DNA from: Psammoneis japonica
Lineage: Eukaryota
Direction of reading: 5' to 3'
Assembly: GCA_008632985.1 (NCBI GenBank)
Contig: QPGO01000113.1
Location: 188,947 to 246,720 of the forward strand
Length of the DNA: 57,774 bases
The notes under the pieces were generated by a model. The model was not told where the DNA came from. It saw nothing but the letters and a program-made list of their open reading frames with translations, and made no database searches. A program made the position numbers and the translations under genes. Every line of letters starts with the position of its first letter. Within the stretch, counting starts at the first letter, position 1. Shown one piece after another: positions 18,801-52,499 of this stretch.

Positions 18801-21459
18801 CAAAGCAACTTGATGAGGCGTTTCAGCGGGTATTCATCGTAGAAGGTCTCGCTCAAGTCCTTCTTCTTGGTCCCAAATGTTTTTGACATTATGCGAAAAG
18901 CAACCTTTCGCATCTGTTGCACATACTTGAACATGATGCAAGCAAAAAGATACGGAGTGGAAGGCGAACGTAAAATGGCAAAGAAGCGAGCATAGTTATA
19001 ATCTTTTTTTGCCTGTCACAATCACGAGTGGAGAAAAACGTGAGGAAGGAGTTGCTTCTCGTACGGCAACCGCGAATGGCGACAGTGACATACCTTGTAG
19101 ATGCGTAGCGCCAACTGCACAGGTTTAGAATTGTAAACCATAGGACGCTCCCGGAATAAACGCGCCGCGTAATTCAGTACTTCGGAGCCTCCATCGTTGT
19201 CCATTGTGAGAAGCATGTACAACCCCCTCATTTCTGGTTCCGCGGTTCCACGAGTCGTCGTCTTTGCGGCTTGTGATCCAATCAATCGGTTCGGAGACGC
19301 GGCCTGATTGTCTAGAGGCGATCCGTCAAAGTCACGAGGCCCGTTTCCCATGACGATAGGAGACTCGCATCCATGAATACCTCGTCCTTTCACTCCTTGC
19401 TCGTCAGCCACTTCTAGCGTGGATCTTCCAAGCGAATCATCATAGTACATGTTCAATGTCTTCATGGTTTGTCCAAGCTCCGTGATATTTTGCTGGCTCT
19501 GACTGTTTACGAAATCTGGAATATGGCTCAGCTGGTGCTCACACATTGCATGCCATCGTGCAATGCGCTCGTGACATCGAACCGCCCGCGCATCGCAGTT
19601 GCCGCCGGTTCCAACATAGTTTTGCAAGATGAAATCCTTCCGTACCATCCTTGTTCTGCAGGCCAGAACGAAAAGAGTGAGAGCGTGATACTATACAACA
19701 ATAAGAAGCCTAAGCATGTGCGAGTTGGTGACACACCTGTCCCAGATAAACTGTATGCAACCAAAAGAACCACACAGAAGCCAGGAAATATGAGTGGTTG
19801 GAGTAAAACCTAAAGAGTAAGAGTGGGGATAAAAACATGAACAATTCGTACCTGATAGACGTCTAGAGGCGGAGGACTTTGTACTTGCGTAAAGCGCGGG
19901 TCTGGGCCTTGTCGATCTCGTTCCATAACCCACTCCTCCAGATAGGCGCACACCGCTTCGAGAACACCAGGAGGTCGGACCCATTCCGGAACATTCAGTT
20001 TAAAGTCCGCGGCTGAACGGCGAAATCGCTTGACGGCGGTTTCTCGTAGAGTCCAACCATCAGGATGGATTGTGCCAGGCTGAGGGATTTCAAGTAGCTG
20101 GATATCATTTTCTTGCTCGCGTCTCTGCAGCTCATCATCCGGGCACATGGAAAGACATGTACCGACTAGCGATACTGCGGTTTCCAAGTCTTCTCTGTCA
20201 GTGCTGTCGATTTCTTGCTCGTCCTTGTCGTCCTCTTCTTTTTTCTGCCTCAGACCTTCTTGCAGTCTCGGCGTCTTGGGAGCAGCAAATCGGCGTTTGT
20301 TCTTCTCTGCCAATGACTCCACAGGAGTAAACGATGGCGCATTTGGATTCAAGGAACTGGATCCTCCGAGTGGTGGTGCATTTCGCAATCCTCCAGCGGA
20401 CGCTTGTGACGGAGGCGCACTGCCTGAGGCCGCAGCCGCAGCGGCCTCTTTCTGCCTCTTGCGCTCTAGCAGCTTTTTCTTCTTTTCTTCCAGCTTGGCT
20501 TTGAGTCTCGCCAGCTTCTCTTGTTCCGATTCTTTCCTCGTCGTTGTAGGTGGTTCTGGAACCGGCGGAGAAAAAGACCCCCTTGTAGGTGACATGGATG
20601 CATCTCGCGCCGACGATAGCTGAGTTGGAGGTGGACTTGTGCTACCGCCACCCCAAGCGCTTGCCCCAGACTGCTGCGGATTACCAAACGGAGATGGCTT
20701 ATTAAAGTCTGAATCGCCCATATCTTCATCGTCAGAAGCTGCGGCACCAAACGCCTCTGTGGTCGAAGAAGACGCTCCAAACGTCGTTGGGAATGTTGTG
20801 TTTGAAGAGCTAAACGTTGGTGCCGTGCTGCCGCCAAAGCCTGACGCACTGTTTTCTCCGGTAGGAACCACATTGGCTGATACACCAAAAGAAATTGTAG
20901 AAGAAGTCGTTGCTGCAGTTCCACCAAAGGGACTGGCAGCCGATGAAGTATTTACGGCCGGAGCAAACGCGTTTGTGGATCCAAATCCCGGCGGCTGAGA
21001 CGGTTGCTGTGCGTTGCTTCCAAATGGAGAAGACTGGGCAGTCGTTCCTCCAAAACCGTGTGGAGCGGAAGCTCCTCCACCAAATGTACCACCAAATTGT
21101 TGATTCTGTTGTTGTGCGGCAGGAAAAGGAGCTGGTTGATTTGTATTATTACCAAAGCCAGACGTGAATCCAGAAGTCTGTGTCCCAGCAAAGTTTGCCG
21201 GGGGCTGATTTGTAGAAGCCCCAAACGGCACCAGATTCGACGAGGTACCAAAGGTTGTAGCTGGTGAGCCTGCTGTCCCTCCAAATGGCGTAGATGAAAC
21301 CGTCGATCCAAAGCCTTGCTGAGGGGCAGCGGAAGTCGAGCCAAACGCAGAGGATCCAAAGCCTCCACCAAAATCCGGTTGAGACGACGATCGCTGTTGT
21401 GATCCAAACCCCGACGGTTGTTGCTGTGACGATCCAAAGCCTCCTCCAAATCCTGACAT
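15878..21459 (-). CDS. SAC3: SAC3/GANP mRNA export factor (TREX-2) with N-terminal FG repeats
   Basis: FG/GFG repeats; LVGTCLSMCP, AVKRFRRSAAD, VRPPGVL, FIWDRTRMVRKDF, HERIAR, NYARFF; long coiled-coil C-terminus. Introns 19851-19751, 19736-19656 and about 19093-19013. Confidence 0.9.
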
Positions 21460-21690: not shown

Positions 21691-22057
21691 TGCAGTATGC
21701 GACTGTTATATACATATTTATGATTATATATTATTTATATGTCAATCGTACCACAGTCGTGGATGCGTACAAAGGACAGAACGATCACACAGAGTTGATC
21801 GGATGTCGAGAATTGCAAATACGATCGATTGACGATGTTGACATCTTATGTGTCAATAGCAATCGTATCCGGACAATCTGTTGTCACGAATATATTCTCC
21901 GAAAGGCCTTTTGTCTGTAGAAGCAGTACAGAAGCTTTAGGCCATTGAGAACTCGTTCGGAGAAACCAAAAATCACAGAGCAAAATTTAATCTCATAATT
22001 TCCACTTTTCGTACACTATTCTACTTTCGTTTACACTCGTTCTTCGAGCATAGTGCA
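21691..22057 (+). repeat. 5' LTR
   Basis: Starts TGCAGTATGC, ends GCATAGTGCA (imperfect inverted termini); differs from 26052-26418 at 3 positions. Confidence 0.95.
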
Positions 22058-25000
22058 TTGTGTATACACACCACAGAAGGTAAAAAGCACGGAAAATGAA
22101 GATTTTAACTAATGTGCCTTTGTAAATTCTTCTATAAACAGGAACGAATCGCATCAGTTCTGCTGGAATCGATTTCCGAGCGGAAGAAGCTCAAGCCGAG
22201 CAGTGCCTCAAGATGGAACGCTGTTTTTCGTCTACCAGACAAGAGGATTCGCTCTAATACGGTCTATTCCAAGCACCCAAGGATCAAGGGCTCTCAAGTG
22301 CACCGCATTGTCAAAAAATCTACACCAAGTCATGGTTGCAGAGAATGCAAGTTCCGAGTCGATCAGGTCCGAGAAATGCGTCTGGCATGCAAGGAGAGAC
22401 CATTGGAGAGTTTTTGGAGACCGAATCAACGAGCCTCGAGTCCAAGAGCAAGATGGAACCGTTGGAAAGTGCCTCAAGAGTCTCGTGTCTCATGTCTTTC
22501 CAAGAATTGCACTTCAGAATCAGAGTTGTTATTTTCAAGACGACCTGAAGAAACCAGAGCTGCTTGACAGCAAGAAAGCCTCTGTTGGACCCAAGAGGTC
22601 AATGATGAGAGTCCATGCGACCCTCAGATGGATTCTAAGTCGAATCTAGCGGGAAACCGAGCGCTGATTTATCAGCCATCACTCGCACCGCAAGGATGGC
22701 AGCATCAGTCTACTGTCCAAAACAATCAACTGTTGCAACTCATCCTTGATGAGCTGATTAAGTTTTGAGTCATCCAAAGGTCGTTCATGACGTCCGTGAC
22801 GAAAAAACATATCAACTCAGGCTCTGACAGCGCAGTTGGTTCCAAAATAAAAAAGGTTCCAAATTTGGTTCCAAAAATGGTCTCCCACATGGTGCCAGAA
22901 CAATCCAAAGTGAATGCAAGGTCTTGTCTTTGAAAAAAGAACACCCACATCACGGATTGAAGCCATTCTAAAAATGAACTAGCAAAAGAGTGCAAGGGTG
23001 ACTCTGAAAGAGACCCAAAAATGCGCCGTTCAAATGGCAATCGCACGCGGTCGCGTCGCGATGACGAAAATGCCGCTCGCAAAAAAAGAGATGAACGTCA
23101 TGATTGATCAGGCGGTTCAAAAAACACTCAAAGCGAGTTCCTTGAACAAAGAAAAAGAGCACAAGGGCAAAGAATCAGATTCTGACACCCTCAGTGAAGA
23201 AAAATGCCAATTTGATCGGATGATCCAGACTGAATCCGAAGAATGGTTTTGGTCTGTTCACGAATTGCATGCTTTGCTGGACATTAGGAAGCCTAGAAAA
23301 AAGGCAGAAATAATTCACACCAGTCCAGGAGTCATCATTTATGTGAACACTTCCTTGGGAAAGGAGAGAAAAAAAAAAGCATCTGCGTGTTCCTGTCGAC
23401 AACGGAACATCGTCAACCACAATTTTGCGCAAATTCGTGCGAAAGTTGAGAACACAAGAATCCGCCACCAAAAACTTGGAAAACCAAGGGTGAGCTCTTT
23501 ACGACTGACAGCAAACACCGAATTCAGTTCTCACTGTGCGAAATTTAATGCGTGCTGACATGCAAACAGTGTGTGTTGAAAACACCAAATTTTTCTTCAG
23601 GTTCAAATGATGTGATCATGGGACGCGACTTAATGTCCAGTCCTGCAAGTCACACTGCACTGCGCAAATGAAGAAATCTAATGGGAAGAAGCAATCACCT
23701 TATGAAGAATGTTCACACACTCTTCGATGCCGATGTTTTCAAGCTGAAAACCGATCACATTGAAAAATGTGACGCCGTGAATGGAGTTGACAACGGAACC
23801 AATGGTCCTCGACTCACATTGTCACGCCATCGATCTTAATCAAGTGACAACTACGGCGATGCATCCAACCCAAATGAACACAACCAACTCAATCTTCTTC
23901 TTAAGAGGTTGAAATCGTTTTGAAAAGTTCCTCAGACGAATGCATGGGAAGCATCAGTGGATCTCATCGTGGAAAATCTGACGCGATTCCACGACGCGTG
24001 AGAACCTTCTCCTATCACAGTCTTTGGAGGCGTCCAATCAAAAGGAGTTTGACCCATTATGAAAGATTGAAGTCTCAAGAATGAAATTGCTCTGAACAAG
24101 TCGCTCTGAGACTCATTGTCCAAAGAAAACAGGTCAAGTTCGACCGCATCTGACACTCAGAAGCTCAGCACAAGGTTCACACAGGTGGTGCATCCTTTAC
24201 CCAATGTTCAGGAAATGCTGTTGAAGCAAGAACGTTTCATGTGTGTAATCTGTTTGATTCAAACATGGAATGCCACCATGTCAAATAAAAAAAGCACACG
24301 TCGTGCTCACACGAAAATCATGCCGTGGGGAGAAAATGAGCACTGTGGACTTCCAATGAGAATCTATAGAGCCCCAGATATTTTTATGCAACACTTGAGT
24401 GAACTCATAACAGGTTTGAAGTTGTCAGGACGACTGCATGTGATCGTTTGTGCCTGACAAAAGTAACTTCAAAATGTCACCTGCACAAGCAACAGCTTAA
24501 TGCGGCATTCAAACGACTAGAACAGTCGCTTAGAAGGTTAACAACAAAAGTCCTTCACTGTTTAACTTGAAATAAACTATCAAGACTTCCATGCGTGACG
24601 ATGTGCAATCGATTGCAAAGAAAATGGAGGCGATTCAAGCAATCGCAACACGAGAAAAACGTAAAGAACACTACGACATCTCGTTGTCATACGTCACTAT
24701 TATCGAGACATGTAGTCTCAACGATCTCCTGTACAATACTAGCCAAATTCACCTCAATAAAGGTCAAACGGCAAAAGTGCAAGTACAGAACGAAAAGTCT
24801 CCGAAAATGTGGAGCGCATCAAATCAAAAACTATATTGTTATCATACACGGATTTCAATATTATACGTTACAACGGAAAAAAGAACTTCTGTCCATAGTG
24901 AAAACACTTATAAAATTCCGAAATATACTGTTTGGCCAACAGATTTATACATATACGGATCATAAGACACAACGGACAAAGTCATACGTTGACAACTTCA

Positions 25001-26051
25001 GTCCCGAATTAGAATACAACGAGGGCAAGGCGAACATCGTCGCGATAGACGCGATCAGCCGACTTACTATAGAAAATTGAATCCTACGACAATGTCCTAC
25101 CGTTAAAACGGGATAAAGACATTCCCTCCAAATTGTCGGACGCGACATATCATACGAACACTTTTCGTGGAGGCGAGCGAGATCGAAAAATGCTCATGTC
25201 ACAAGGATAAAATCGCCTTTTTAAAGGACGATTTAGGAAAAAACAGTGACAGATTGGTACACATTATACGTATCCACTTCACACTGGCAAAAGACAATCT
25301 CACAACACCCGTACGGTTGTATTGTACAATGTACGAGGCAAGACATTAAAATATACATCATGTCGACACACGAGATGTGCCAAAGATCTAGAAAAAGAAA
25401 AGAAAAATGGACATTTATCCACTTAGTGCACGAAACCAGTGCCTTCGGAATGACAAAATAACACCGGTATGTCAGAAAGAAACGTCCAAATAACGATTAA
25501 AATCCAACTGATAGATGGTTGAAGTACAAAAAAAAAAATCCATAATGGAATTCATAACCATCACAGGATTGATTATCAAGACGAAATGGTCATAATATCT
25601 TTGACCATCGTTTATTATTACTTATGAAACGTGGTAGTGCAGCAGAGCAATATGGCATATAAAGTAAGCCCGCCAAACTACATGAAATCCACAAGTAAGT
25701 AAGTGAACGCCACAATTAAGAGCGTACATTAAGTACTGGGCACGATGCTATGTACAATCGATATCAGGAAAAACACTTACTCCAGGACAATTAGTCCTTG
25801 TGTTCATATCAACAAGAACGTCAATGAGAATACTCGACGTAATACTATATATATACATATTAAGTGAGAAACAAACAATGTCACTCTCAAAAGACATTCG
25901 GAAATTGGAACGGCCCTATATTGCCTATACAAAACAACAACAGTCATTGCTAATGGCACAATACAGTGAAAGTGGAGACATTATTGACACTGTCGATGTC
26001 CGTCGAATAATCCACTTACAAATGACTCTAATGTGCAATTAGGGAGGCGAA

Positions 26052-26418
26052 TGCAGTATGCGACTGTTATATACATATTTATGATTATATATTATTTATA
26101 TGTCAATCGTACCACAGTCGTGGATGCGTACAAAGGACAGAACGATCACACAGAGTTGATCGGATGTCGAGAATTGCAAATACGATCGATTGACGATGTT
26201 GACATCTTACGTGTCAATAGCAATCGTATCCGGACAATCTGTTGTCACGAATATATTCTCCGAAAGGCCTTTTGTCTGTAGAAGCAGTACAGAAGCTTTA
26301 GGCCATTGAGAACTCGTTCGGAGAAACCAAAAATCACAGAGCAAAATTTAATCTCATAATTTCCACTTTTCGCACACTGTTCTACTTTCGTTTACACTCG
26401 TTCTTCGAGCATAGTGCA
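26052..26418 (+). repeat. 3' LTR
   Basis: Direct copy of 21691-22057, preceded by the PPT and followed by the TSD CAAC. Confidence 0.95.
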
Positions 26419-26852
26419 CAACTTCGTATTTTGGGTCTGTTGTGTTGTTGCTTTTGGCAAGTCTAAAGCAGTCAAGCTAGAGTTCAGCAGTTACATGGAT
26501 GGATTTGAGATCTCACAAACTGTCGCTGCTGCTGCACCACACAAAAGCAACAACTCCTCACCAGGAGGCAGGGTCACACAACGGTGCAAGAACCAACTCA
26601 ATTTGGTCTTCTTCTCACAGACAAGAGAGAGCAGCTCTCACAGTTTTCTCCATGGAGCAAGACCATTGTTGCAGGAAAGATCTGCTGCTGATCACATGAT
26701 TGTGGGCTTGTCATCATTGATGTGGAGACTGTGGTGGTGTCGTGTGTCCTCACATTCACCACCTCAGTGTCGTGACAAGTCAAGCCAGCTCAAGGAACTT
26801 TCAGAGGTCTTTGCTTTGACTTGGCCCCTCTCCTTCAAAACAACACATCAAC

Positions 26853-27145
26853 TTTTGATGCCAGAGATTTGACAATTGCAGAGCAACTCATCAGTGGGAG
26901 TGTTCCAGCATCACCACATGCACGCAGCACTTTGTTTCTTTCCAGACACCATGGTGCGATCATTGATGGTTGCTGACTGTTGCATGGAGTCTGTTGCTGC
27001 CAAGATTCCAGGCTTCTTCTTCCCGCCACATTGCTTGCAAGAGACACAAAAGACATCCCATCAAGCACCCATTCTGCTTTCCAACAATGGCTGTCAATGT
27101 GCGGAAACTGTCGCTCTGTTTTGTGATCGCAAAAATGGAGGCGGC
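26853..27145. repeat. Diverged dispersed repeat, copy 1 (copy 2 at 36479-36850)
   Basis: Collinear shared blocks ttttg.tgccagagat, tttgtttctttccagaca, tgttgcatggagtc, ccaggcttcttctt, gacacaaa, ttgtgat.gc..aaaaatgga. Confidence 0.65.
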
Positions 27146-27271
27146 GATGACGCATGTTCTTCAAAACAAAAACGTTGACAACACCACACATGTGACTGTT
27201 GGAACACTGGGGACAGATGCAGTTTTCACAGGACAGACAGACAAAGTTGCAGTGTGGGATGCACTGATGAT

Positions 27272-28858
27272 TGTGGACAATGTGGCAAGTTTGCACTCAC
27301 AACTCGGGTTGAGTTGCGTGTCTTGTGCTCACTTTTTAGCTTCTGCACCCGGTTGACATGGCAATGACAACAAGCAGTGGTGTCAGTTGAGTGTTTGCAA
27401 GCCACATGGCAAGCTGGGAGATGGTGAGACTCAACACACACCAGCTCTTGGTGAGCCACAAAGCTCTGCTGAAGCTGAAAAGTTGCGGCACGACACTCAA
27501 AGGAGTGGTGTCTTTCGAGAGCTGGGAAGTTGATGGGAATCCACAGATGAGGACTGGGAAGTCAGCAGGAATCCAAAGGAAAGAGCCAGGATGTTGATGG
27601 GAATCCAAAGGTGTGCCTCATGTTGGTGGATTGCAGCAAACAAGCCAGCTGGATGAGGGTGAAGAAACAATCTCTGGAGGACCTCGCTGTTGGAGAAGCT
27701 GTCAAGGGTCTGCTGAAAGAGGGTGCAGTGATGTTGTGTCAGGGTCAGTGAGACAGAGTGTGCAATTGTTGACAAGCTGTGGAACTCCAACACAAAACAC
27801 AAGTCCCAGAAAATGTGGGCAAGGACACAGCTGAGTGCGACACATGGAAACCATGAGAAAGATTGGCGAGTGTGTTGGAAGAATGTTCAGGCTGGAGGTG
27901 CAGGCACTGATGTCCATGAGGCAGGAGAGCATGCCAGAAAAGCTGGATTGTCCATCAAGAGACACCATGACATTGGAGAAGGATGAGGAAAATCTGGGGC
28001 AAGAAATGAGGCCACCGTGTGAAACAGAGCACAATCTACAAGATGAAGAAGGCAAAGGTGTTCAATGTGATTGTGGGGCAATGCACAAAAGCCATTCATC
28101 ACAAGCTTGGAGGAGCAGCAGAGTTCATGAGAGTTGCAAAGGAGTGGGATGTGGTGGCACTGCTGAGCATTCTCAAGTCAATCTTGTTCCATGCAAATGA
28201 GAAGACAAACCCTCATGTCCAGGCAGTCAAAGCTTGGAAGCAGTTTGTGCTCATTTGTCAAGACAAAAGAAAGGTGCTTCAAGATCATCTCAGTTGGTTC
28301 ATGAGCCCAGCCAAGATGGTGGAAACTTCCTGTGGCAGGATCATCCAGGAAGAAATTGCCAAGAAGCAAAATGGGTTCAGCAAGGATGCTGATGACACTT
28401 GGAGCAAAGAAAGGAACAAGTTGTCAGTGGTGGTGTTGTGGAAGGCACCAAGGATTGTTGGCATGTCTTGAAAGACCTGCACCAGCAGTTCATGTTGGGT
28501 GTTCACATGTGCCCCAATTCAGCTGAAAAGGCATTGCAGGTGTTGGGCACCTGCGGCACCAAAAGAAACCTGAGGGTGCAAGTTTTGTGCAGAGCAAAAA
28601 GAAGAAGAAAATCACATGTTGGAAGTGCAACAAAGTCAGACATCTGAGAAGGGATCATCCTGACAATGATCATTCATCAGTGGAGTTGGATGCCGCAGAT
28701 CACGGGAATCAACAGAGTGGCGATTGTGGACAAAATGTGGCAAGTTTGCATTTGAAACTTGGGTTGAGTTGCAGGTCTTATGCTCGCTGTTTAGCTTCTT
28801 CACCTGGTTGACATGGCAATGACAACCAGCAATGTCAGTTGAGTGTTTGCAAGCCACA
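27272..28858 (+). mobile_element. Short LTR element carrying only a decayed copia-type gag
   Basis: About 135-bp direct repeats 27272-27406 and 28725-28858, each TGTGG...CCACA. Internal gag-like YKMKKAKVFNVIVGQCTKAIHHKL...DVVALLSILK and zinc-knuckle remnant ITCWKCNKVRHL; no pol. Confidence 0.7.
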
Positions 28859-30500
28859 TGGTGAGTCAGGAAAAAGCGAGACTGAACATGTGCCTGTCAG
28901 CAAGCCATGAAGCTCCAACAGTGACAAACGAGCTGGCATGCAAAGGAACAACAAAAAGAGGAGCTTGGCAAAATGGTGGCAGCAGCATGCTGTGTTGCAT
29001 CCAGTGCTGTGTTGTGCATTGCTGTGGTTGCTGGCTCTTGGGTGTAGAAGCCAGCATTGTTGCTTCTGCACATCATGAAAAATGCCCACAAACAACCTGA
29101 GACAGTTTTCTTGCAGTGACAGAATTGCGTTCATTGTGTGCAAATGCATGCGTGACAAGTGTGTTTTTGTCTGGTCATTTCAACAGTTGATGATTGCCGT
29201 GTGCTAAAAATTGTGAGCTCTGGCAGGTGATGACAAAATTGGCTCTGAGGTCTGTGCAGAAATCATGCTTGATTGACCTCATTTCACCTGGAGCTGGAAC
29301 TGGCACAGGTGCAATGCTCACATTGACAATGGCCATTGCACCCAAACCTTCACTCACAACATTCCTGCATGCTCACAAAACCATTCACTCTCATGCCATT
29401 GTGCATGAGACTTTTTTTCAGCATGATGCATGCAGTCTCACTTGATGCCAGCAGACAACTCACTTGCGCACACTTGACACCAGCACAGACAGCTTGATCT
29501 CTTTCACCCACAACTCAGACATCAACAACTGCCATCAATTTGATGCTTCACACTGACCCCACCAGGCCACAGATGGACTGCCTTTGCCAATGAAGAACAA
29601 CTTGCGCAGACCCTGACAAAGCCAGTGCCAGCAACTGTGCTGCAGTGCTGCAGCAAGACTGCATGCAATGCCACGGGGTGGGCAGGCAGTGACAGGGCAA
29701 CCTGTGACATGGATGACCATTGTCTGTGGATGTGGGGGGGCTTGTCACAGATTTCATGCATGGCATTGGATCTTTGCAAATGAGGGGTGATGCCCAAGCT
29801 GCCGTGCCACTTGGGGCCCCTGAAGTCACTCTGGTCATTGCCCCCTGACATGTGTTCTCCAGACAGATTGGGGCATCTTCTTGTGTGGTGGCTCTGGCTG
29901 AAAGTGTGACCCCTCTGAGCCAGAGCAGATGGTTGCTCAGTCAGATGGGGCACTGTGCTCCCACACCACCAGCAAGAAAGATCATGCTTTCACCCCATCA
30001 TGGTGCACCCTGGCACCAAGGAGCTGCCACACCATGGCAGCAGTGCCTCTTGCCTTCTGCGACCAGTGCTGCCAGAGCCTTGCCAAAAAATGCACTTTGT
30101 GTGCTGTGCACCAACTGCCATTGAACTCTGTGCACTTCTTTGCACAAGCAAAAGCAACCATTTGGGGGACTTTTTTTTTGTCCAAATGGCAGACAAAATT
30201 TCCTTGATGATCCTCACAGTGTGGCATTGCCCAAAACAACACATGTCTTTGGCTGTTCAACAGAGAGATTGATGCAACCAGAAAGTTTTTTCTTTCTCCA
30301 GCATGTGTGCAATGTGCCCCTTGCTCACACCAGAAAGGATGTGCCAAATCAATGCTCTGGCATGGAACAAATGTTGCCAAAAGCTTCTTTCTCAACAGCT
30401 GGCAAACCAAACTGCAACCATGGCTGGGTGACAACAGAGTGGACAACGACCATTCCTGCTTGGCCATTGGCCGCCACAGCACAGATGGACTTTCTTTGGT

Positions 30501-33400
30501 GTGTCATCCATGGAGAGTGATGAGTCTTTGGGTGGCAATGTGAAAGAACAAACAGACACATTGGTTGACTTTGCAGCAAACATTGAGAAGAGTCATCTGA
30601 TGAAGAACCTTCACAGCATTTTGCCAGTGGTGTTGCCAACACCAAAGAAAAGGCAAGACAGACATGCTCCAAAGCTCGTGAAGATTTTACAAATGGGCTC
30701 ATCATTTTTTTACATGGATCTGGAGCATGGGGGTGATGACTGTGGAGATGTTCAGCTGTTGACTCTTGCTTGTGATGCTGTGACAAAGTTGACACTGGGC
30801 AAGTTTGACAAGCATGTGTGCCCACCCTCACATGCTCATTGGACTGAAGCAACCATGTCCACACATGGCGTGCACCCAAACCAGGAGAGAGTGCAGCCTG
30901 TCTCTCCTTTTGAAGAAGTGTGGAAGCAGTTTGTGGATGTTGTTGAGAAACATCTTGACAATGGCAACAAGAAAGGCACCCTTGTCATGTGTGTGTGGGG
31001 CAGACAGGCACGTGATTGTGAGTCACTGTTTTGAGTCACAGAGGATGCCCATCATGGAAAACTGTTCATGCCAAGGTGGCACCCTTGTTTCATGGATCCA
31101 GAGAAAGTTGTTGCAGAGCACCTGGGGTGCAAATTGAGCAAAAAACACTCCAAGACAGCTGGGCGTGGATGCAAAGCAATGCACTGCCATGTGATGGGGC
31201 AAAAGCAAATTGAAAATCAAAAGGCATGCACTCTTCTTCCATTGTTGATGATGCTCATGAACAAACACTTTTGGACACACATGCTGACAAATCAAAGTCT
31301 GCCAGATGTGTGGGGCATGAAGAAGAGGAAAGCTCAAGATGCCAAGCTGAAACAAGCTGTGCTGAACAGCTGGTCTGAAGACAACAATGAAAGTTGGGAA
31401 ATTCTGTGTCAACACAGATGCACAGGTCCAGTGGGAGGGCCACACCATGGACCCACTCAAGAAGCCATGCTGTGCTCTGGCACATCACTGGCGTCACTCT
31501 TCTTGTTCTTTTTCCCAGTTACACTGCTTGAACCATTGCCACTGGGACAAACTGATGCAGCAATGAAGACTTTGTTTGTGAATGTGATGGAACATTAGAA
31601 GACTGTGGCAATGATGATGACAATGAGCCAGAAGAAAATTGTGCAGAGCCCAAGGGATGAGGATGAAGAGCCAGAAGAAAATGATGCAAAACCCAAGGGA
31701 GAGGATGAAGAAGAAAAGAAGCCTTGACTTGCCACACATGACAAATCACACCCTGGCGCTCAACATGGACACAAGGGAAAACCAACTCCTGCCATGGCTG
31801 GGCATGTTTGGGCCTTTTTTTGTTCCTTTCCTGGCCTGTTCAGCATCAGTGTGTTGGACTTGGTCCGCTCATTGTGGTCAAGGTTGTCTGTGCATCTGAA
31901 ATGCCATGACAGGAGCAAGCAATGTGTTTGACCAGCTTTGCACAAAAATGCATTTCATCAATGGCAACATGCTCCCATCTGACAAGAATGACCCACGACA
32001 GTGGTCCCCATTGCAAAAATTAATCCTGTTTTCATTGTCATCCAGTCCACTCTTGTTTCAGCATGGACACTTGGACAGAAATGTAGTGCAGACAAAATCA
32101 TGATAAAATGTGTGGGGGTTGAGCCATTGCGTGGACCCAACACATGTCTGCCAAGCCAGTCACACATGAGACAAAGGTTTGTGCTTTGTGCTGTGCATGC
32201 AAGGCTTTCTCTGCACCTTTGAGACACATGCTGGCAAGGAACACACCAAAGATGGTTCACCACCAAAAGCTGTTGTTGATTGACTGCTGCTCAGCACAGG
32301 CACTCAAGTCACTGTGCAAGGGGAGCTGGATGGATTTTGTGTGCAGACAACATTTCTGCACTTTGATGGAGGCGATGCTGCATCTGTCATTGTGCACAAG
32401 ATGTTGATGCCAGTGGGGGTGTGTTTGGGCTGAGCAAGAAAAAGTCCTGAGCTGCAGCTGACTGTGATGCCACAACAAGCTGTCTGGTCCAGCCCTCAAG
32501 AAAGCCAAGCATGGTTGGTTGTGAAAGGCAGTCAAGCAAGTGATGGGTGTGCAGGCAGGCAGCTCCTCATCTACAAAGTGCGGGCAACAGTGTGGAAAGA
32601 CAAGAAGGAGGTGGGATTCCTGCACAATCATGTGGTTGGCCCCACAGACCCCAGCCACACAGTTTTGCATCATTCAGGAGAAGCCAAGGTGAGGATCAAG
32701 ATTTCCAGTCAGGAGATCACCACCAAGCACACTGCCCACACATCTGGGATTGACCACAAAGACAGGGACACCACCAACTGCACCACATCCATTCACACAA
32801 AGCAATTGGCTGGCACTGTTTGTGAGTGTTTTTTTAGCTCAACAATGGTGCGCCACTTGCAATGTGTGCCATCGTGAAGTTTGTGGCTGCTGATCCAAGT
32901 CATCAGTGGCGCAAGTGCTTGCCAAAGAATGAAGGTTGGTGCAAGTTCCAAACAGACTTGGCAACAGAGATGATGAGCCATGGCATCCAAATGGATTGGA
33001 AGAAGGACACAGCAGATGAAAACTCAAAACCAGAAAAGATGAGACAACTTGGGTGCATCCCATGTGATTGCAAAGAATGTTTTTTCTGCAACAAGGGCAT
33101 TGTGCAAGTGGCACTGACCATTGGAGATGTTGCCCAACTCCTCACAATGCACGACACCTGTTCAGCATCAGCCAGACATCAGACCAGGCTCAAACAACTG
33201 AAAATCCTTGACTGTGGAGAGTGTGCTGCAGGAATGATCTCTTTGACATTTCTGATTGCAGCGTGACAATGGATGAGCTTAGAAGCTGCTGTGCGCAAAC
33301 TGGGGTTGGGTGCCAAACTTGTGGAGACCACAGAGTGACTGTTTGTGTGAAGGCTGCTGGCCAACCTGCAATCAAGACATTGACCAACAGCAAATGTGCA
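30501..33400 (+). pseudogene. Decayed piggyBac-like (DDE_Tnp_1_7) transposase with an N-terminal DEDDh exonuclease-like domain
   Basis: Exonuclease-like FFYMDLEHGG...QL...FDKHV.P...THG...VWKQF...D. Transposase fragments in order: LASLFLFFFP, FDQL..MHF, AWTLG..CSADKIMIK, KP..H..KV.ALCCA, ATVWKDKKEVGFLH, GIDHKDRD, KFQTDLA, MRQ...PCDC..CFFC..G, plus a Cys-rich tail; many stops and frameshifts. Confidence 0.8.
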
Positions 33401-34199
33401 CCAAAATGTTGACAAACTGAAATTCACACGTTGGCCAAAAGGAACCAAATTTTGCAAAGCCCCTCACATGATGCTGTGTGCAACAGCAGCACTCTGTTGA
33501 TGCACCCAGGCTGGGTTTTGAGAATTGACACAAACCTTCAAGCCACTTGAAAGCATCAAAACAATCATTTGGAGCCCCCTCTCAGCAGTGGTCATGCACA
33601 CCCCCTCATCCTGGGCGTGCATGCAACAAGGGAAAAAACATTGGAGAATTGATTCAAACACAGCTGTCTCAAGTTGGAAATTGAAAAAATGCCATGCTGA
33701 TGAACATTGAGTGTGACAAAATCACTTGAAAATTTTGGATTGACACTCCCATGCTGACAGGGGGATTCCAACACTGCAACGTGCCTCAGGTGCATGTGGA
33801 AGGCATGGGAGCAAATGATGCAAGAGCTGCAATGCAGTGAAGACTTGCAGTTGTGCTGAGTGCTGAAAGCTCATCACAGCTCCATGCATCATGATGATGG
33901 ATGTGGTGGTGTGTTGTGTGCAAAGAAAAGTGCACAGCCGCAGCACACTGTGCAGTCATTTGCAGTCACCCTGGAGGAACACACAGTTGGTTTTTCACTG
34001 ACTCCAACACCACCATTCAATGCATTGCAACACACAGCAGAGTTGCTGCAATGCAGCTGCAGCAGTGCAGCTCCCATTGCTGCAACAGCTGCAATGTGTT
34101 CCAACATTGCAGTTGCTCCACTGCTGCTTCTGCAACAAGAGCCTTGATCTCAGGCTCAGGAACAACTCTTGTGCTCTGGTGCTGGTTGTTGAAGAACTG

Positions 34200-35750
34200 T
34201 TTTGCTTGAGTTGCACCCCACCTGGTGGGCCCAGCACTGCTCTCATTGCTTCTGAGCCTGAATTGCAAGTTTGTGGCTCAGATCCTTCAAGGATCAAAGA
34301 AGGTGGGACAATGTCATGCATTGTTGGCTGGACTTGTGGCAGGTGGCAAAAAGGAGTGCCATGTGTCAAGCAACAGTGCTCTGGACCAACCAACATGACA
34401 GCAGCCACATGGGGACATTTGTTGCAGCACTTGGAACAGACACCAAACCATTGGATGAAGCAGGTCAAACACTTGACGTGGTCTTTTGGAGTCAAATGCT
34501 GCAAATCTTAGAATGTCCATTGAGTGAATGACAAACTTGCAACTTTGCAACATTCTTGAATTCATCAACTGATGTGAACATGCACAGTGTGTTCCAGGTG
34601 ACACTGCACGACCCCCACAACACAATTGCCAACACAGCTGCTGCTGCTGGTGGGTGCTGCTGCCTGCGCCATTTGTTGCTTGTCCCTTTACAAACAATGG
34701 CACCTCCTGAGATGCTGCAGCAAGATGGAATCAACCTGAAGACAGGCTTCTGTGTGTTGAGCTCAATGATGTGTTCATCAAAGCTGTCTTGAATGAAATG
34801 GGCGTGAAGCAACACATTGTCCTGTGGCATCATTTCCACAGCAATGGGCAAAACAAGTGTTCTGGAGTTGTTGTCACACTGGCTGGAACAAAACAATGAA
34901 AAAGTCTTTCATTGTTTCCCACCACTGAACATTGAAGAAATGCCAAAGAAATGCTGAGCATGTTTGAGTCATGGGGGGTCCCCACAGCAGACATGAAGGC
35001 TCTGCGCAAGCAGCACAAAGTTGAGCACACTTAGATTCTCATTGACGAGGCCCAGAGGGTTCATGAATTTGATGCCATGTGGGCTTGATTGTTGCCGCAA
35101 CTCAAGACTTCTTAACCCTCCTTGGGTCTCACACTTTCCACTCAACTCCTGCCCCATGTCTTTTTCAACTTCCTTGTCAGGGAGGTCAAGAACTTGACCA
35201 CAGTGATGTTTTGCGACCATTTTAGATTGGCACGAGTCAGGCCAACTGGGTCAACTGTTGGAACATGGTCATGGAAATGAGCATTGTTGACAGTGGCAAG
35301 GAGCAAGCAGAGTTTCACATCAGAGCATCTTGAGAGATGTGCACTTGACGTTGAGCAGGTTTGCAAAATTTCAAACTCCAACTCAAATGGGACAAAAGCC
35401 CAGCTCCAACTGCAAAGGCAGGCATTGGTCAAGGCTTTGATCACAGCTTTGTGATCACTGGATCCATGCTTTAAGATGAGTTGCTGAGAAAGGCTGTTTC
35501 ACATGTTTTGCTGGGTGTGCTCCACACAGATGCAGCAACTTTTTCACCTGACAACTTGTTGCCAATGGCAAGAGCCAGAGTCTTTGTGCTGCAGGGCAGC
35601 CTTGCTTGTCAGGCTGCACAGTGGTTCTGCAGCAATGGCATGCACAACCCCAATTGGGGGCATGGAGCCTCCCAAACAATGGCACCAAGGAGTTGGCAGA
35701 GAGGGCAGCTCTGTTGCTTTCAACCTCTCAGCTCAAAGCATGCAAAAACC
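34200..35750 (-). pseudogene. Probable decayed MULE/Mutator-type transposase
   Basis: Minus-strand fragments in the expected order: PLF...H...WG, SSDHKAVIKAL (cf. ISDRHKGL..A), SNMLS (cf. TSN.AES), and a SWIM-like C..C...CPHVAAV. Heavily mutated. Confidence 0.42.
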
Positions 35751-36478
35751 GGGCAGTCTTTTCTCTTGGAGACCAGCTCTGACATTCACTTGATTGCTTC
35801 CTGTTGTCATGTCATTCAAGCCTGAGTGCAAAACAAAAGCGCCAGGCTTTCTGGGCAAGAGGGGAGATGTGGGTTGAAGCGGCATGTTTGGCGAACAAGC
35901 GCCACTCAAAATCCTTTTTCTGGGTGCCCCTCTGGGAGGGGTGCTGCCTCTGCAGCCTTTCACCCCCCTTTGGTGGGGTCAGGTTGAGACAATGTGAGCG
36001 CAAATCATGGTGACCCCAAAGCTGCAGCAGCGGCAAGAGGGAAAGTTGCGACCTTGTGCACATGGCTTCTGAGCTGACACAATGGGCAGACATCACGGAA
36101 AAGCAAGAGACAACACTCTGCTTCACCAAATTCTTGTTTTTGGTTTGTTTGTTGTTGCTTTTGGCAAATCCCCACCAAGCAGTTGTGTTTAGAGCACAGC
36201 ACTTGTGGACAGATGTGAAATCTCATGGACTCCTGCTGATGCTGTGCCCAGCTCAGGCAGCAGGTTGAGTTGGCACACAACTCAGCTGGCGTCTTTTCAC
36301 AGACAAGAGCACACCTCTTTTTTGCCATGGAAAGAGGCCATTTTGTTCTCATGAAGCTGAACCCTGAACTTCACAGTTGTTGATGTGGGGCTGCGTTCTT
36401 GCACTCACCTTCAGTGGCTTGAAATTTGAGCCAGCTCAAGAGACAGCAGGAGGCCGCCGTTGCTTCTCTTTCCATCGA

Positions 36479-36850
36479 TTTTGCTGCCAGAGATGCAACG
36501 ATCACAGAGTGACTCATTCACCAGAGAGTTCCAACACCACCACCTGCACTCATTTCTTTGTTTCTTTCCAGACATGGCATCATGTTGAATCAGCTTGCTC
36601 TGCCCACGAGGCATGTTCAGAGTGCACAGCCCGCATGCGCAGCACTCCCATTGGCCGATCATGGTTTTGCTGATTGTTGCATGGAGTCCACTGTCACCGA
36701 CACTCCAGGCTTCTTCTTGCCACCGCGCCATTTGCAAAAAGACACAAAATAAAAAGAGATTACCATGTAGTTGAGCATTCATTCGTTGAAAAGAAAACGC
36801 AGGAACAGTCGCGTTTCTTTCCGCATCATTGTGATTGCGAAAAATGGAAG
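36479..36850. repeat. Diverged dispersed repeat, copy 2 (copy 1 at 26853-27145)
   Basis: Same collinear blocks as copy 1, with an extra segment of about 70 bp. Confidence 0.65.
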
Positions 36851-37248
36851 TCTTGTGGGCGAGTCGTGATTTGAAATTTGAATGGCGCGCATCGAGCGTT
36901 GGGTCCCGAAAGCAGTATTATAATAATATTAGTAAATTCATAATCTATGAAATTATAAATATTCAATAATGTAGGTCAATAACTCTTATGAGAGCACCGC
37001 ATATAACGGCTAAACGATTAAGTTGTCAAACACGACCTGTCACACGACAAACTCTAGTATTGATTCTACGTGTGTTGGCTGGCGCGGTTCTGGAGTCGCG
37101 CCACGCCAACAAAAAAGAAGCAAAGAATTTTTTACCGAACTCGAGTCCCATCAACGGTGTGGTCCGGCCTTTTGAGAGAACAACCAAAACCGGAAACGCG
37201 TTTGCTATTCCAACAACAAAAATACGAGAACCAGAGAGAGTGTTACCC

Positions 37249-38086
37249 ATGGCGATACGCAAGTCCGAGCCGTCACCGGTGAGGGAAGCAATCGAGGTAG
37301 ATCTTCAGAGTGGGACGCCTCGAGTGGAAGCGATCGAATACAACAATGATGATGACGATCAAGCAGCAGGTATGAATATAGAAGTGGAGTCACAAATGAG
37401 CAGCCAGCGTGGAATGCTGGTGGAGAGAATAACGTGTGCTCCTATGGAGTCGATTCCAGAAGATGAGGGAATCTTGGCGGCCATTATCAATTACTTTTTA
37501 CCCGACACAGACAGTGAAGCAGTAGCGAGTGTTCCGCCCCCTACAACAAAGTCAATTCTGAGGACCAAAAAGGATGCGGATCAAGGTCCCGTACAGCGGA
37601 ATGTCTCATTTTCGAGTTTGGAGATTCGGGAGTACAAAATGACTCTTGGAGATCATCGTAAGTTTAGTTTCGATATGATTATGCGAATGCCTTGGGGATT
37701 CTCATTCGTGTTGTTTTGTTTTTGATCCCCAAACTTTCACGCGTTCAACTGTAGCGAATGCCAAGTCTGGTCCACCCACGTCTCTTGACTGGGAGTACAA
37801 GCCTAATCCCGAAATTGTCGACTTGGACAAGTACGAGCGTAACAGATGCCCTCGCCGTCATAAAAACAGGCTGAGAATCAGCATCAGGGACCGCGAGCAG
37901 TTGCTCGTGAAGGAAGCGGGCTTTAGCTATACAGAAGTGAAGGATGCTTGGATGAAGGCGTTGGAGGTTAGGAAGAATCGACTCGATACCATTCGGCGGA
38001 GTCCAGCGGCGGAAATGATGGATGAAGTGTGGGAGTCGGCAAACCGCAAGTTTTGGCGTTTGTTTGGTTGGAACAACCTCGGATGA
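37249..38086 (+). CDS. Hypothetical protein of a diatom-type family, 2 exons
   Basis: Motif RNVSFSSLEIREYKMTLGDH / NAKSGPPTSLDWEY...DLDKYERNRCPRR...RE.LL; GT-AG intron about 37658-37753; start codon uncertain. Confidence 0.65.
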
Positions 38087-38206
38087 ATATTAGTACGTAG
38101 CTACATTTTGTGCATAGAGAATAAGTCTAGAAGAGTAGTCGATTGAAGAAAGCCATTGTGTTGCTACGTTCCCTGCTTTGATAAATTGAATGTGCCTAGA
38201 ATGTGC

Positions 38207-52138: not shown

Positions 52139-52499
52139 CTGATGTGTAGTTGCTCGACTTCTTTTCACTATGGCAATGAGACTCTTGAAACAATACTTTT
52201 AAGATATTCTACACTATTAGTTGCACATTTCGTTGACATCGGTGCCGATTGTACATAAATGCAAGTAGTTGATAGTGATGGGTAACGAAGGCGGTTGAGA
52301 CATGTTTTTCTGACGATTACTGTAGAATACGGCGCGAATTGAATTGTTCCAAGGAATCATCTGTAGTCTATAAAGCGAGAATTGCAAATTTTGGTTACGT
52401 GTAGGATCGTTACATTATTTTTTTTTCTTTTTGTTTCTTCAGCTGTTGAATTTTGATCGCCAACGAGATCAAGACGCCTCATTGCGATAAGAGTGCACA

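What the first reader, a model, noticed from the sequence alone, without database searches (positions are those of the whole stretch)
26500..36745. Candidate repeat-targeted hypermutation system: TpA and CpG both converted to TpG/CpA (reverse-RIP-like)
Seen: about 10 kb of TE remnants carry only about two dozen TA by eye, where several hundred would be expected, and very few CG, with sharp edges; flanking genes have ordinary TA and CG. Known: CG loss is explained by 5mC deamination, and fungal RIP creates TA (CA>TA). Neither explains near-total TA removal. Inference: a second process mutates TA>TG (A>G, read as TA>CA on the other strand) in silenced repeats. It affects DNA transposons on both strands, so it probably acts on chromosomal DNA rather than on an RNA intermediate. 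Candidates are a DNA adenine deaminase, error-prone pol-eta-type repair recruited to methyl-CpG T:G mismatches, or a modified A or T base. I do not know a description of this in diatoms, but novelty needs a literature check.
Basis: partly seen in the sequence, partly recalled or inferred. Interest (0 to 1): 0.93.

Follow-up and report, generated by a model that had tools for sequence, protein, structure and literature searches.

The report
TA- and CG-free hypermutated diatom DNA
A silent 10-kb stretch between two diatom genes has had almost every TA and most CG dinucleotides mutated into TG or CA, which looks like the final stage of a targeted TA mutation process so far reported only once, in an unrelated alga.

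Summary
Window 26496-36748 holds 23 TA (about 400-670 expected) and 94 CG (605 expected). TG and CA are nearly doubled and the edges are sharp. A second block, 52489-54128, has the same signature. Single-copy-depth unitigs of a public DNA run reproduce the sequence, so it is not an assembler artefact.

The cause is mutation in chromosomal DNA, not native composition. The TG+CA excess roughly balances the TA+CG deficit. Two pairs of old direct repeats inside the block differ mainly by TG-versus-CA doublets. A relative elsewhere in the genome carries TA or CG where the block has TG or CA. The edges cut through a repeat copy and stop 240-310 bp upstream of two divergent genes. CpG decay is still going on: 7 of 10 listed assembly-versus-run differences are at CpG.

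The TE identity is only partly supported. There are terminal repeats and a nested multi-copy element, but no protein domain, no surviving ORF signal and no homologue.

The TA part matches a 2026 preprint on Bigelowiella natans (TpA>TpG/CpA hypermutation of silent integrated viral DNA). I found no report for diatoms. I read this as a new member of that barely known kind, saturated and combined with ordinary CpG decay. The enzyme is unknown.

The parts
26496..36748 (.). Main hypermutated block (10,253 bp). It is almost free of TA, poor in CG, and has about twice the usual TG and CA.
   Evidence: Run X1 unitigs at single-copy depth reproduce it. No Pfam domain, no ORF signal, no Rfam family or tRNA.
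52489..54128 (.). Second, smaller block with the same signature, less saturated (TA o/e 0.08, CG o/e 0.22).
   Evidence: No Pfam domain.
26419..27051 (+). Left copy of an old direct repeat of about 640 bp. It continues leftwards at 21670-21690, across the young element's insertion. Its first roughly 95 bp (21670-21690 plus 26419-26495) have normal TA/CG; the rest is TA-free.
   Evidence: Alignments; blastn; TA/CG positions.
36111..36749 (+). Right copy of the old direct repeat, about 75% identical to the left copy. Weak homology may run on to about 36848, in normal-composition DNA.
   Evidence: The extension scores 132.5 against a shuffle mean of 101, sd 10.8, max 131, so it is only suggestive.
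27269..28915 (+). Nested multi-copy element of about 1.6 kb, bounded by direct repeats of about 190 bp (27269-27466 and 28722-28915, 82% identical). Depth suggests about 25-50 copies, and contigs elsewhere skip the interior.
   Evidence: Depth 1394-2878 against about 55 single-copy, and joints 27249>28756, 27280>28756, 27295>28762, 27366>28845.
21691..26418 (+). Young, high-copy, non-autonomous LTR element inserted into the left end of the old repeat. Its LTRs are 367 bp and 99.2% identical, with TG..CA ends and a CAAC target duplication. It is context, not part of the hypermutated domain: its LTRs have normal TA and CG.
   Evidence: Depth 8,000-48,000. Only a sub-threshold RT_RNaseH match, E 8e-4, 20 bits against a cut-off of 24.8.
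22191..24440 (+). Interior of the young element. TA is depleted (o/e 0.12-0.38) and TG/CA raised, but CG is close to normal (o/e 0.46-1.21). This hints that TA loss can occur without CG loss.
19810..21459 (-). Left neighbour gene (SAC3/GANP and PAM2 domains), ATG at 21459. Before the young insertion, the block edge lay about 308 bp upstream of this ATG.
   Evidence: The distance is my arithmetic.
36988..37725 (+). First exon or ORF of the right neighbour gene, ATG at 36988. The block edge lies 240 bp upstream. A contig of run X2 skips 97 bases with GT..AG ends at 37657-37755.

Best explanation
The block is old, silent intergenic DNA: decayed repeats bounded by diverged direct repeats, lying between two divergently oriented genes of a diatom. 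Two context-specific transition processes have acted on it in place, on the chromosome, over a long time. (1) TpA>TpG/CpA (A:T>G:C at TpA only). This is the signature measured directly in silent integrated viral DNA of Bigelowiella natans. I infer an enzyme-driven adenine deamination in DNA, or an equivalent TpA-specific lesion, targeted to a silent chromatin domain. (2) CpG>TpG/CpA, most simply deamination of 5-methylcytosine in methylated DNA, as known for diatom repeats. Both processes drain into TG/CA, so the end state lacks TA and CG. The domain stops 240-310 bp upstream of the neighbouring genes' start codons, so it seems to be defined by chromatin state (promoter proximity) rather than by the limits of the repeated sequence. 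Shown: the composition, the mutational origin, in-situ action after duplication, persistence over time, and ongoing CpG decay. Inferred: the deaminase, methylation, silencing and a defence role.
For: Budget: the TG+CA excess (986 by flank frequencies, 1140 by base composition) roughly matches the TA+CG deficit (889 and 1161). Converting TA and CG to TG/CA in the flanks by simulation gives CA 0.117 and TG 0.115, against 0.118 and 0.118 observed. GC is 48.6% against 46-47% in the flanks, as expected from a net AT>GC gain. Independent mutation after duplication: the old repeat pair has 12 TG-versus-CA doublets against 11 for all six other kinds of adjacent double transition together, none above 3 (468 columns). 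The nested repeat pair has 8 against 2 (192 columns). Polarity: among 26 listed differences to an 85%-alike relative, the relative has TA at 3 sites and CG at about 6 sites where the block has TG/CA. The reverse occurs once for CG and never for TA. One site has TG in one nested repeat and TA in the other. In situ: the left domain edge lies inside the left repeat copy, whose first roughly 95 bp keep TA and CG. Persistence: the old repeats differ by 44 transversions in 468 columns. By my arithmetic, ordinary mutation over that time would have regenerated about 170-190 TA in the block; 23 exist. No strand runs: TG 1210, CA 1208, runs test z -0.8, which fits site-by-site events on both strands. 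Specificity: AA and TT are not depleted (o/e 1.13 and 1.22). Ongoing CpG decay: 7 of 10 listed fixed differences between assembly and run X1 are CG versus TG/CA (6 with CG in the assembly), although CpG bases are under 2% of the block. Separability: the young element's interior is TA-poor with near-normal CG. Precedent: in B. natans mutation-accumulation lines, 230 of 231 mutations in two silent viral inserts were A>G or T>C, all at TpA, and the genome has 124 clusters that are TpA-poor and CpA/TpG-rich (Results and Discussion read). Diatom TEs are CpG-methylated by DNMT5a (PMC9998398, passages read).
Against: No methylation, chromatin or expression data could be examined, so 'silent' and 'methylated' are inferences. 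No whole genome is held, so I could not do a genome-wide scan, build family consensuses or search for deaminase genes. The polarity evidence for TA is thin: 3 sites plus 1, from a partial listing (26 of that contig's 103 differences; 963 rows of the table were not shown). The relative is itself low in TA/CG in the stretch seen (4 and 6 in 261 bp, with only the listed changes applied). None of the 10 listed assembly-versus-run differences is at a TA, so current TA activity is not shown, though only 23 TA remain. Surviving TAs are skewed to TAA/TTA contexts (19 of 23 against 40% in the flanks), and the simple model does not predict this. Run X1 may be the assembly's own source, so it is not fully independent. 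The B. natans precedent is an unreviewed preprint, it reports no CpG effect, and its targets are viral, whereas this block's origin is unknown. Diatom identity rests on one protein search.
Confidence: 0.7

Rival explanations
1. One coupled process. Frequent 5mC deamination in a methylated domain creates T:G mismatches, and their repair by patch resynthesis with an error-prone polymerase (pol-eta type) introduces A>G at TpA.
For: TA and CG loss share the same edges in both blocks. CpG decay is demonstrably active. From my own knowledge, pol eta errs at WA motifs.
Against: WA includes AA, and AA and TT are not depleted (o/e 1.13 and 1.22). TA loss is more complete than CG loss (0.03 against 0.16), although it would be the secondary effect. 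The young element's interior is TA-poor with near-normal CG. The sections of the B. natans preprint that I read, and a term search, report TpA hypermutation with no mention of CpG.
Confidence: 0.08
2. A single deaminase with dual specificity attacks A in TpA and C in CpG of silent DNA.
For: Identical domain edges for both losses. The preprint's text cites ADAT2-type enzymes reported to act on both A and C in DNA (I did not read the cited papers).
Against: TA and CG depletion differ in degree and are uncoupled in the young element's interior. CpG methylation of diatom repeats already explains the CG part. No enzyme could be examined because no genome is held.
Confidence: 0.08
3. TpA carries a modified base in silent chromatin (for example N6-methyladenine, or a hydroxymethylated or glucosylated thymine). 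That base miscodes or is mis-repaired, giving TA>TG/CA without a dedicated mutator.
For: Strict dinucleotide specificity and symmetry on both strands fit a palindromic modification site, in parallel with CpG methylation. That base modifications occur in related protists is my recollection, not tested here.
Against: No data on modified bases. No TpA-specific modification is known to me in diatoms. The rate excess needed is very large: at equilibrium, about 100-fold over the reverse transition by my arithmetic.
Confidence: 0.1
4. RNA-level A-to-I (and C-to-U) hyperediting of element transcripts, fixed by reverse transcription and reintegration.
For: From my own knowledge, ADAR-type enzymes prefer a 5' U. 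Terminal direct repeats suggest an LTR-type element.
Against: The two repeat copies mutated independently after duplication. The domain edge lies inside a repeat copy, leaving its first roughly 95 bp unmutated, and reverse transcription would not produce that. Both strands are hit equally with no strand runs. AA is not depleted.
Confidence: 0.02
5. Native composition of foreign DNA, or selection against TA and CG, or a sequencing or assembly artefact.
For: Sharp edges would also fit an inserted foreign segment. Run X1 may be the assembly's own data.
Against: The block has no coding signal on which selection could act. TG-versus-CA doublets between internal paralogues and a relative with TA/CG point to change over time. 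The edge cuts through a repeat copy. Clean unitigs at single-copy depth reproduce the sequence and differ from the assembly mainly at CpG. None of 6734 control windows elsewhere reaches this composition.
Confidence: 0.02

Closest known systems
TpA-targeted hypermutation of silent integrated viral DNA in Bigelowiella natans (Mettrop et al., bioRxiv 10.64898/2026.01.13.699255; outline, Results and Discussion read)
   Same: The same change (TpA>TpG on one strand, TpA>CpA on the other) and the same long-term signature (TpA-poor, CpA+TpG-rich clusters of several kb). It is confined to discrete regions next to normally mutating DNA. Many of the affected sequences cannot be annotated.
   Different: The host is a diatom (stramenopile), not a chlorarachniophyte (rhizarian). 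The block here is saturated (TA o/e 0.03, against 0.45 for their NCLDV region). CpG is lost as well, and the word CpG does not occur in their text. Here the target's origin is unknown and partly repetitive, with no viral gene seen. Nothing was measured in real time here.
Fungal repeat-induced point mutation (RIP)
   Same: Dense, context-specific transitions confined to a block with sharp limits, which destroy coding capacity. Diatoms carry DNMT4 enzymes related to the RIP factor RID, of unknown function (PMC9998398, passages read).
   Different: RIP changes CpA to TpA and so creates TA; here TA is erased. From my own knowledge, RIP needs duplicated DNA and a sexual cycle. Here most of the block is single-copy by depth, and the edges follow promoter proximity rather than repeat limits.
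CpG decay by 5-methylcytosine deamination in methylated repeats (vertebrates, plants; CpG methylation of diatom TEs by DNMT5a, PMC9998398)
   Same: CG o/e is 0.16 with TG/CA excess, and CpG sites dominate recent differences (7 of 10).
   Different: It explains only the CG half. The methylation state of this block was not measurable here.
ADAR or APOBEC editing of retroelements and viruses in animals
   Same: Deaminase-driven transition clusters that cripple selfish elements, and a 5' U/T neighbour preference for ADAR (as the preprint's Discussion states).
   Different: Those enzymes act on RNA or on single-stranded replication intermediates and give strand-coordinated runs. Here both strands are hit site by site in chromosomal DNA, and the specificity is strict for TpA.

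Membership tests
TpA>TpG/CpA hypermutation of silent DNA (B. natans type) | Near-exclusive A:T>G:C transitions at TpA, giving TpA loss with CpA+TpG gain | tested here: met
   TA o/e 0.03 with TG/CA o/e 1.9. Budget and simulation match. AA and TT are not depleted. All four TA-informative polarised or paralogous sites show TA against TG/CA. The evidence is indirect, from composition rather than observed events.
TpA>TpG/CpA hypermutation of silent DNA (B. natans type) | Confined to discrete regions that abut DNA with normal mutation | tested here: met
   Two blocks with edges sharp to within tens of bases. All 114 criterion-positive windows lie inside them.
TpA>TpG/CpA hypermutation of silent DNA (B. 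natans type) | The target is foreign (viral or transposon) and transcriptionally silent | tested here: inconclusive
   Terminal direct repeats and a nested multi-copy element, but 0 Pfam hits, random ORF lengths and 0 homologues. Expression could not be judged.
TpA>TpG/CpA hypermutation of silent DNA (B. natans type) | De novo TpA mutations at a rate orders of magnitude above background, seen in real time | not testable with these tools
   Needs mutation-accumulation lines or strain resequencing. None of the 10 listed assembly-versus-run differences is at a TA, but only 23 TA remain.
Fungal RIP | C>T at CpA, producing TpA excess and CpA/TpG loss | tested here: not met
   The opposite is seen: TA o/e 0.03, CA 1.87, TG 1.92.
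Fungal RIP | Mutation limited to the extent of duplicated sequence | tested here: not met
   Most of the block is at single-copy depth. The left edge lies inside a repeat copy, about 95 bp from its start.
5mC-deamination CpG decay | CpG depletion with TpG/CpA gain, and CpG transitions dominating recent changes | tested here: met
   CG o/e 0.16. 7 of 10 listed assembly-versus-run differences are CG versus TG/CA. 8 and 5 sites have CG in one paralogue and TG/CA in the other.
5mC-deamination CpG decay | The cytosines are methylated | not testable with these tools
   No bisulfite, EM-seq or nanopore data were available.
LTR retrotransposon (as the identity of the block) | Long terminal direct repeats | tested here: met
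   Copies of about 640 bp at 21670-21690 plus 26419-27051 and at 36111-36749, about 75% identical.
LTR retrotransposon (as the identity of the block) | Gag/pol domains (RT, RNase H, integrase), TG..CA termini, target-site duplication, primer-binding site | tested here: not met
   No Pfam domain in six frames read through stops. No tRNA-like or Rfam feature. I could not define termini or a target duplication from the alignments. A non-autonomous or wholly decayed element is not excluded.

The most novel reading that the evidence does not exclude
Diatoms have the same TpA-directed DNA mutator as the rhizarian Bigelowiella. It would then be an old genome-defence system shared across the SAR supergroup. 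It is aimed by silent chromatin, with limits set by neighbouring promoters, and together with CpG methylation it erases both self-complementary YpR dinucleotides until the target is a TA- and CG-free fossil. Blocks like this one would be a simple genomic read-out for mapping the system's targets, and a search for the enzyme could begin with deaminases shared by the two lineages. TA loss without CG loss inside an amplified LTR family would mean that elements can survive the system and still spread.
Probability: 0.3. Interest if true: 0.85.

Novelty: new member of a known kind. Interest (0 to 1): 0.68.

Why it matters
Mutation aimed at invading or silent DNA is well understood in fungi (RIP) and animals (APOBEC, ADAR) but hardly at all in the algae that dominate ocean production. 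A TpA-specific, A:T>G:C mutator runs against the usual GC>AT bias, and it has one experimental report, in a rhizarian alga. Its end state in a diatom would show three things. The process is not a peculiarity of one species. It can run to saturation, at an estimated rate about 100 times that of the reverse transition. Its limits follow chromatin next to active promoters. It also has practical uses. A two-number dinucleotide filter finds the targets in any assembly. Such blocks will defeat homology-based TE and virus annotation, because Tyr and Arg codons are rewritten and no domain survives. They may also bias estimates of mutation spectrum or of element age.

Tried and rejected
- Whole-genome analysis: no genome is held for this window. 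So I made no genome-wide dinucleotide scan, no family consensuses and no search for deaminase, DNMT or Y-family polymerase genes.
- Protein identity of the block: 68 ORFs of 80 aa or more gave only one sub-threshold chance-level hit. Six frames read through stops gave 0 families for block 1 and 0 for block 2.
- ORF lengths fit chance: 2 ORFs of 200 aa or more against 2.0 expected.
- The least interrupted frame (350 codons, 3 TGA; not significant after multiple testing) found 0 of 1.84 billion representatives. One search translated the wrong frame and was discarded.
- Rfam, tRNA and tandem-repeat scans found nothing of note: one 43-bp, 2-copy repeat.
- tblastx inside the script box gave no output, probably because it is not installed.
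- The bacterial promoter scan does not apply to a eukaryote and is ignored.
- Other diatoms: 80 metagenome loci anchored on the GT34-GH47 protein held only 13 diatom-like contigs (about 57 kb), none with such a block. That is too little to conclude anything about other species.
- Expression: no RNA holder was listed. Run X2 behaves like RNA (one GT..AG skip), but lack of cover over the block cannot be used.
- The three differences between the young LTRs (TG/CG, TA/CA, TA/TG) all fall at YpR sites. I estimate a chance probability of about 0.16, so they are not evidence.
- Earlier notes of this scan: nothing on this genome or these words.
- Literature: seven full-text searches found no report of TpA loss in diatom repeats. 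One search failed on a too-short term. bioRxiv supplements (the preprint's Tables S2-S12) are closed and may hold context or CpG data that I could not see.

Full report
OBSERVATION. In 26500-36745 there are 23 TA against 673 expected from base composition (o/e 0.03) and 94 CG against 605 (0.16). TG (1209 against 631) and CA (1207 against 645) are almost doubled. Both flanks have TA o/e 0.57 and CG o/e about 1.0. With the flanks' own dinucleotide frequencies the expectations are 401 TA and 605 CG.

In 500-bp steps, every window from 26501 to 36500 has 0-4 TA, and the adjacent windows have 19-46. The edges are sharp to within tens of bases. On the left, TA sites lie at 26464, 26478 and 26492, then none until 27337. 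On the right, the last is at 36190, followed by 36750, 36761 and 36768. I place the block at 26496-36748 (10,253 bp).

It has the same signature in a less saturated form: TA 9 against 109, CG 18 against 82, TG 174 against 99, CA 169 against 90.

A joint criterion (TA o/e <0.15 and TG+CA o/e >1.5 in 500 bp) is met by 114 of 556 overlapping windows. All 114 lie inside the two blocks. It is met by 0 of 6734 windows in 80 unrelated metagenome loci totalling 710 kb.

NOT AN ARTEFACT. One public DNA run (coded X1) holds 84% of the sampled words of the stretch. Its unitigs, at a depth of about 55-65 that is flat from the block into the right-hand gene, reproduce 26419-38500. The pieces are 504-4156 bases long and carry 1-8 other letters each (tables 2 and 8). 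A base modification read differently on the two strands would split such unitigs, and it does not. X1 may be the assembly's own sample, so the support is not fully independent. It does differ from the assembly at a few sites (see below).

SETTING. The flanks are ordinary genes: tocopherol cyclase, EMP70, a GT34-GH47 fusion, SAC3/GANP, an RNB exonuclease, EPSP synthase and others. The GT34-GH47 protein's best relatives are 43-55% identical. The named ones are diatoms (Detonula, Nitzschia). I therefore treat the organism as a diatom, on that one search.

The block fills the interval between two divergently oriented genes. The SAC3/PAM2 gene is on the minus strand with its ATG at 21459. An unannotated gene is on the plus strand with its ATG at 36988; it is also represented by a spliced-looking contig in run X2 (97 bases skipped, GT..AG ends).

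Immediately left of the block lies a young LTR element, 21691-26418. Its 367-bp LTRs are 99.2% identical, with TG..CA ends and a CAAC duplication. Depth of 8,000-48,000 against about 55 implies hundreds of copies. Its only protein trace is a sub-threshold RT_RNaseH match. Its LTRs have normal TA and CG.

WHAT THE BLOCK IS MADE OF. No Pfam family was found in 68 ORFs of 80 aa or more, apart from one chance-level sub-threshold hit. None was found in six full frames read through stops. ORF lengths are what a stop rate of 0.028 predicts: 2 ORFs of 200 aa or more against 2.0 expected. The least interrupted frame has no relative among 1.84 billion representative proteins. There is no Rfam family and no tRNA.

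Structure is nevertheless visible.

(a) Diverged direct repeats of about 640 bp, about 75% identical, sit at both ends (26419-27051 and 36111-36749). With the young element excised by script, the left copy continues at 21670-21690, so the young element inserted into it.

(b) A nested segment of about 1.6 kb (27269-28915) is bounded by direct repeats of about 190 bp, 82% identical. It sits at 25-50 times single-copy depth, and contigs elsewhere skip its interior, as solo repeats would.

(c) The remainder is at or near single-copy depth.

'TE remnants' is therefore plausible for the frame and one insert, but no protein shows it. I found nothing that supports 'DNA transposons on both strands'.

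MUTATION, NOT NATIVE COMPOSITION. Several lines agree.

Budget. The TG+CA excess is 986 by flank frequencies and 1140 by base composition. The TA+CG deficit is 889 and 1161 on the same two bases.

Simulation. Converting TA and CG at random to TG or CA in the flanking DNA gives CA 0.117 and TG 0.115, against 0.118 and 0.118 observed. The summed squared distance over all 16 dinucleotides falls from 0.0097 to 0.0012.

Paralogues. TG in one copy opposite CA in the other can arise by single steps only from an ancestral TA or CG. The terminal repeat pair shows 12 such doublets in 468 aligned columns, against 11 for the six other kinds of adjacent double transition together, none above 3. The nested pair shows 8 against 2 in 192 columns. 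The same pairs have 8 and 5 sites with CG in one copy and TG or CA in the other, and one site with TA against TG.

A relative. A contig present in X1 and X2, about 85% alike over 32396-33101 and 33498-33598, continues into TA-containing sequence. Among its 26 listed differences it has TA at 3 sites and CG at about 6 where the block has TG or CA. The reverse occurs once for CG and never for TA. This listing is partial: that contig has 103 differences, and 963 rows of the table were not shown.

IN PLACE, ON THE CHROMOSOME, FOR A LONG TIME. The copies of each repeat pair diverged by independent TA/CG-derived changes, so much of the mutation came after duplication.

The left edge of the domain (26496) lies inside the left terminal repeat. 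Its first roughly 95 bp (21670-21690 plus 26419-26495) keep 4 TA and 1 CG in the 77 bases right of the young element, and several more on the left side. The homologous part of the right copy is inside the domain and has one TA. Editing of an RNA followed by reverse transcription would not leave such a pattern.

At the right end, homology may run about 100 bp past the edge into normal DNA, but this is only suggestive: score 132.5 against a shuffle mean of 101, sd 10.8, max 131.

Before the young insertion, the left edge lay about 308 bp upstream of the left gene's ATG. The right edge lies 240 bp upstream of the right gene's ATG. I infer that the limits are set by promoter-proximal chromatin, not by repeat extent.

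The terminal repeats differ by 44 transversions in 468 columns. Applying the per-lineage rates this implies to the block's dinucleotide counts, ordinary mutation should have regenerated roughly 170-190 TA. Only 23 exist, so TA removal continued through most of that time or is recent. This is my arithmetic, not a tool result.

TG and CA are equally frequent (1210 and 1208) and interleaved at random (runs test z -0.8). That indicates site-by-site events on both strands rather than strand-coordinated bursts.

If the block is near equilibrium, TA leaves about 100 times faster than it is re-made from TG/CA, and CG about 26 times faster. This is also my arithmetic.

CPG DECAY IS STILL RUNNING. Ten fixed differences between the assembly and X1's single-copy unitigs inside the block were listed. 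Six have CG in the assembly and TG or CA in the run, and one is the reverse. CpG bases make up under 2% of the block. None of the ten is at a TA, but only 23 TA remain, so this says little about current TA activity.

ONE PROCESS OR TWO. TA loss (0.03) is more complete than CG loss (0.16). In block 2 the values are 0.08 and 0.22. The interior of the young, amplified LTR family (22191-24440) has TA o/e 0.12-0.38 and raised TG/CA, with CG o/e mostly 0.7-1.2. AA and TT are not depleted, which argues against a WA-motif polymerase signature or a loose ADAR-like preference. I therefore favour two processes that share a target domain.

COMPARISON WITH WHAT IS KNOWN. Full-text searches found one directly relevant paper: a 2026 bioRxiv preprint on Bigelowiella natans (10.64898/2026.01.13.699255; outline, Results and Discussion read). 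In its mutation-accumulation lines, two silent integrated viral regions mutate about 1000 times faster than the rest of the genome. Of their 231 mutations, 230 are A>G or T>C, and all of those are at TpA. The process is active only in some lines. The genome has 124 clusters that are TpA-poor and CpA+TpG-rich. Low-TpA coding sequences are enriched in reverse transcriptase and DDE domains. An ADAT2-like deaminase is proposed.

For diatoms I found only the known CpG methylation of TEs by DNMT5a and the presence of RID-related DNMT4 enzymes of unknown function (PMC9998398, passages read).

Fungal RIP is the opposite in chemistry, because it creates TA, and it fails both membership tests I could apply.

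The TA half of the finding is thus the same kind of thing as the B. natans process, seen at its end point in a different supergroup lineage. The CG half is ordinary methylation decay, as far as the data go.

UNEXPLAINED. 19 of the 23 surviving TA lie in TAA/TTA contexts, against 40% in the flanks. None lies in ATAC, ATAG, GTAC, ATAT or CTAG, where about 10.5 are expected. They may be freshly made from CAA or TTG, or these contexts may be poorer substrates; I cannot tell which. Surviving CG are somewhat enriched in GCGC and poor in TCGA.

VERDICT. The novelty is that of a new member of a barely known kind. The mechanism (a DNA adenine deaminase aimed at silent chromatin, plus 5mC deamination) is inferred, not shown. 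The lack of a whole genome blocked the decisive analyses.

Noticed in passing
window 52489-54128: A second, smaller block free of TA and CG (TA 9 against 109, CG 18 against 82, TG/CA about 1.8-fold) that was not in the finding given. It has no Pfam domain and one weak internal repeat (52503-52603 and 52648-52756, 71% identical).
   Followed up: partly
window 21691-26418: A young, non-autonomous LTR element: 367-bp LTRs 99.2% identical, TG..CA ends, CAAC target duplication, and only a sub-threshold RT_RNaseH trace. By read depth it belongs to a family of hundreds of copies. It inserted 231 bp upstream of the SAC3/PAM2 gene's ATG, into the left end of the old repeat.
   Followed up: partly
window 22191-24440: The interior of that young, amplified element is TA-poor (o/e 0.12-0.38) and TG/CA-rich, but its CG is near normal. 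The window's copy is close to the family majority: only one position was listed at which all laid contigs differ. The family may have passed through partial TA hypermutation and still spread.
   Followed up: partly
window 21849/26210, 22012/26373, 22018/26379: The only three differences between the two young LTRs are TG against CG, TA against CA, and TA against TG. All fall at YpR sites, and the two TA losses are in the copy next to the hypermutated block. The polarity is unknown and the pattern is compatible with chance (about 0.16).
   Followed up: yes
window 27269-28915: A nested element of about 1.6 kb with terminal direct repeats of about 190 bp, at 25-50 times single-copy depth. Contigs elsewhere in the run skip its interior (solo-repeat-like forms).
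   Followed up: partly
window 32396-33101 and 33498-33598: A relative about 85% alike exists elsewhere in the genome. It is present in both run X1 and the RNA-like run X2 at depth about 31, and it continues into TA-containing sequence. Its identity is unknown.
   Followed up: partly
window 26496-36748: Surviving TA sites are strongly skewed to TAA/TTA contexts (19 of 23 against 40% in the flanks, with CTAA/TTAG alone 10 against 2.0 expected). Surviving CG favour GCGC (13 against 5.2) and avoid TCGA (2 against 8.3).
   Followed up: no
window 12231-15038 (minus strand): A single ORF fuses a GT34 galactosyltransferase-like domain to a GH47 alpha-mannosidase. The same fusion recurs in the diatom relatives found.
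   Followed up: no
window 3727-4431 and 606: An assembly gap of 705 N and a single N. The window comes from a scaffolded assembly.
   Followed up: no
window 18001-18500: A 500-bp stretch inside the SAC3-like ORF has only 2 TA (o/e 0.12), normal CG and no TG/CA excess (0.91), with strong AT skew. This is probably low-complexity coding sequence, not the hypermutation signature.
   Followed up: no
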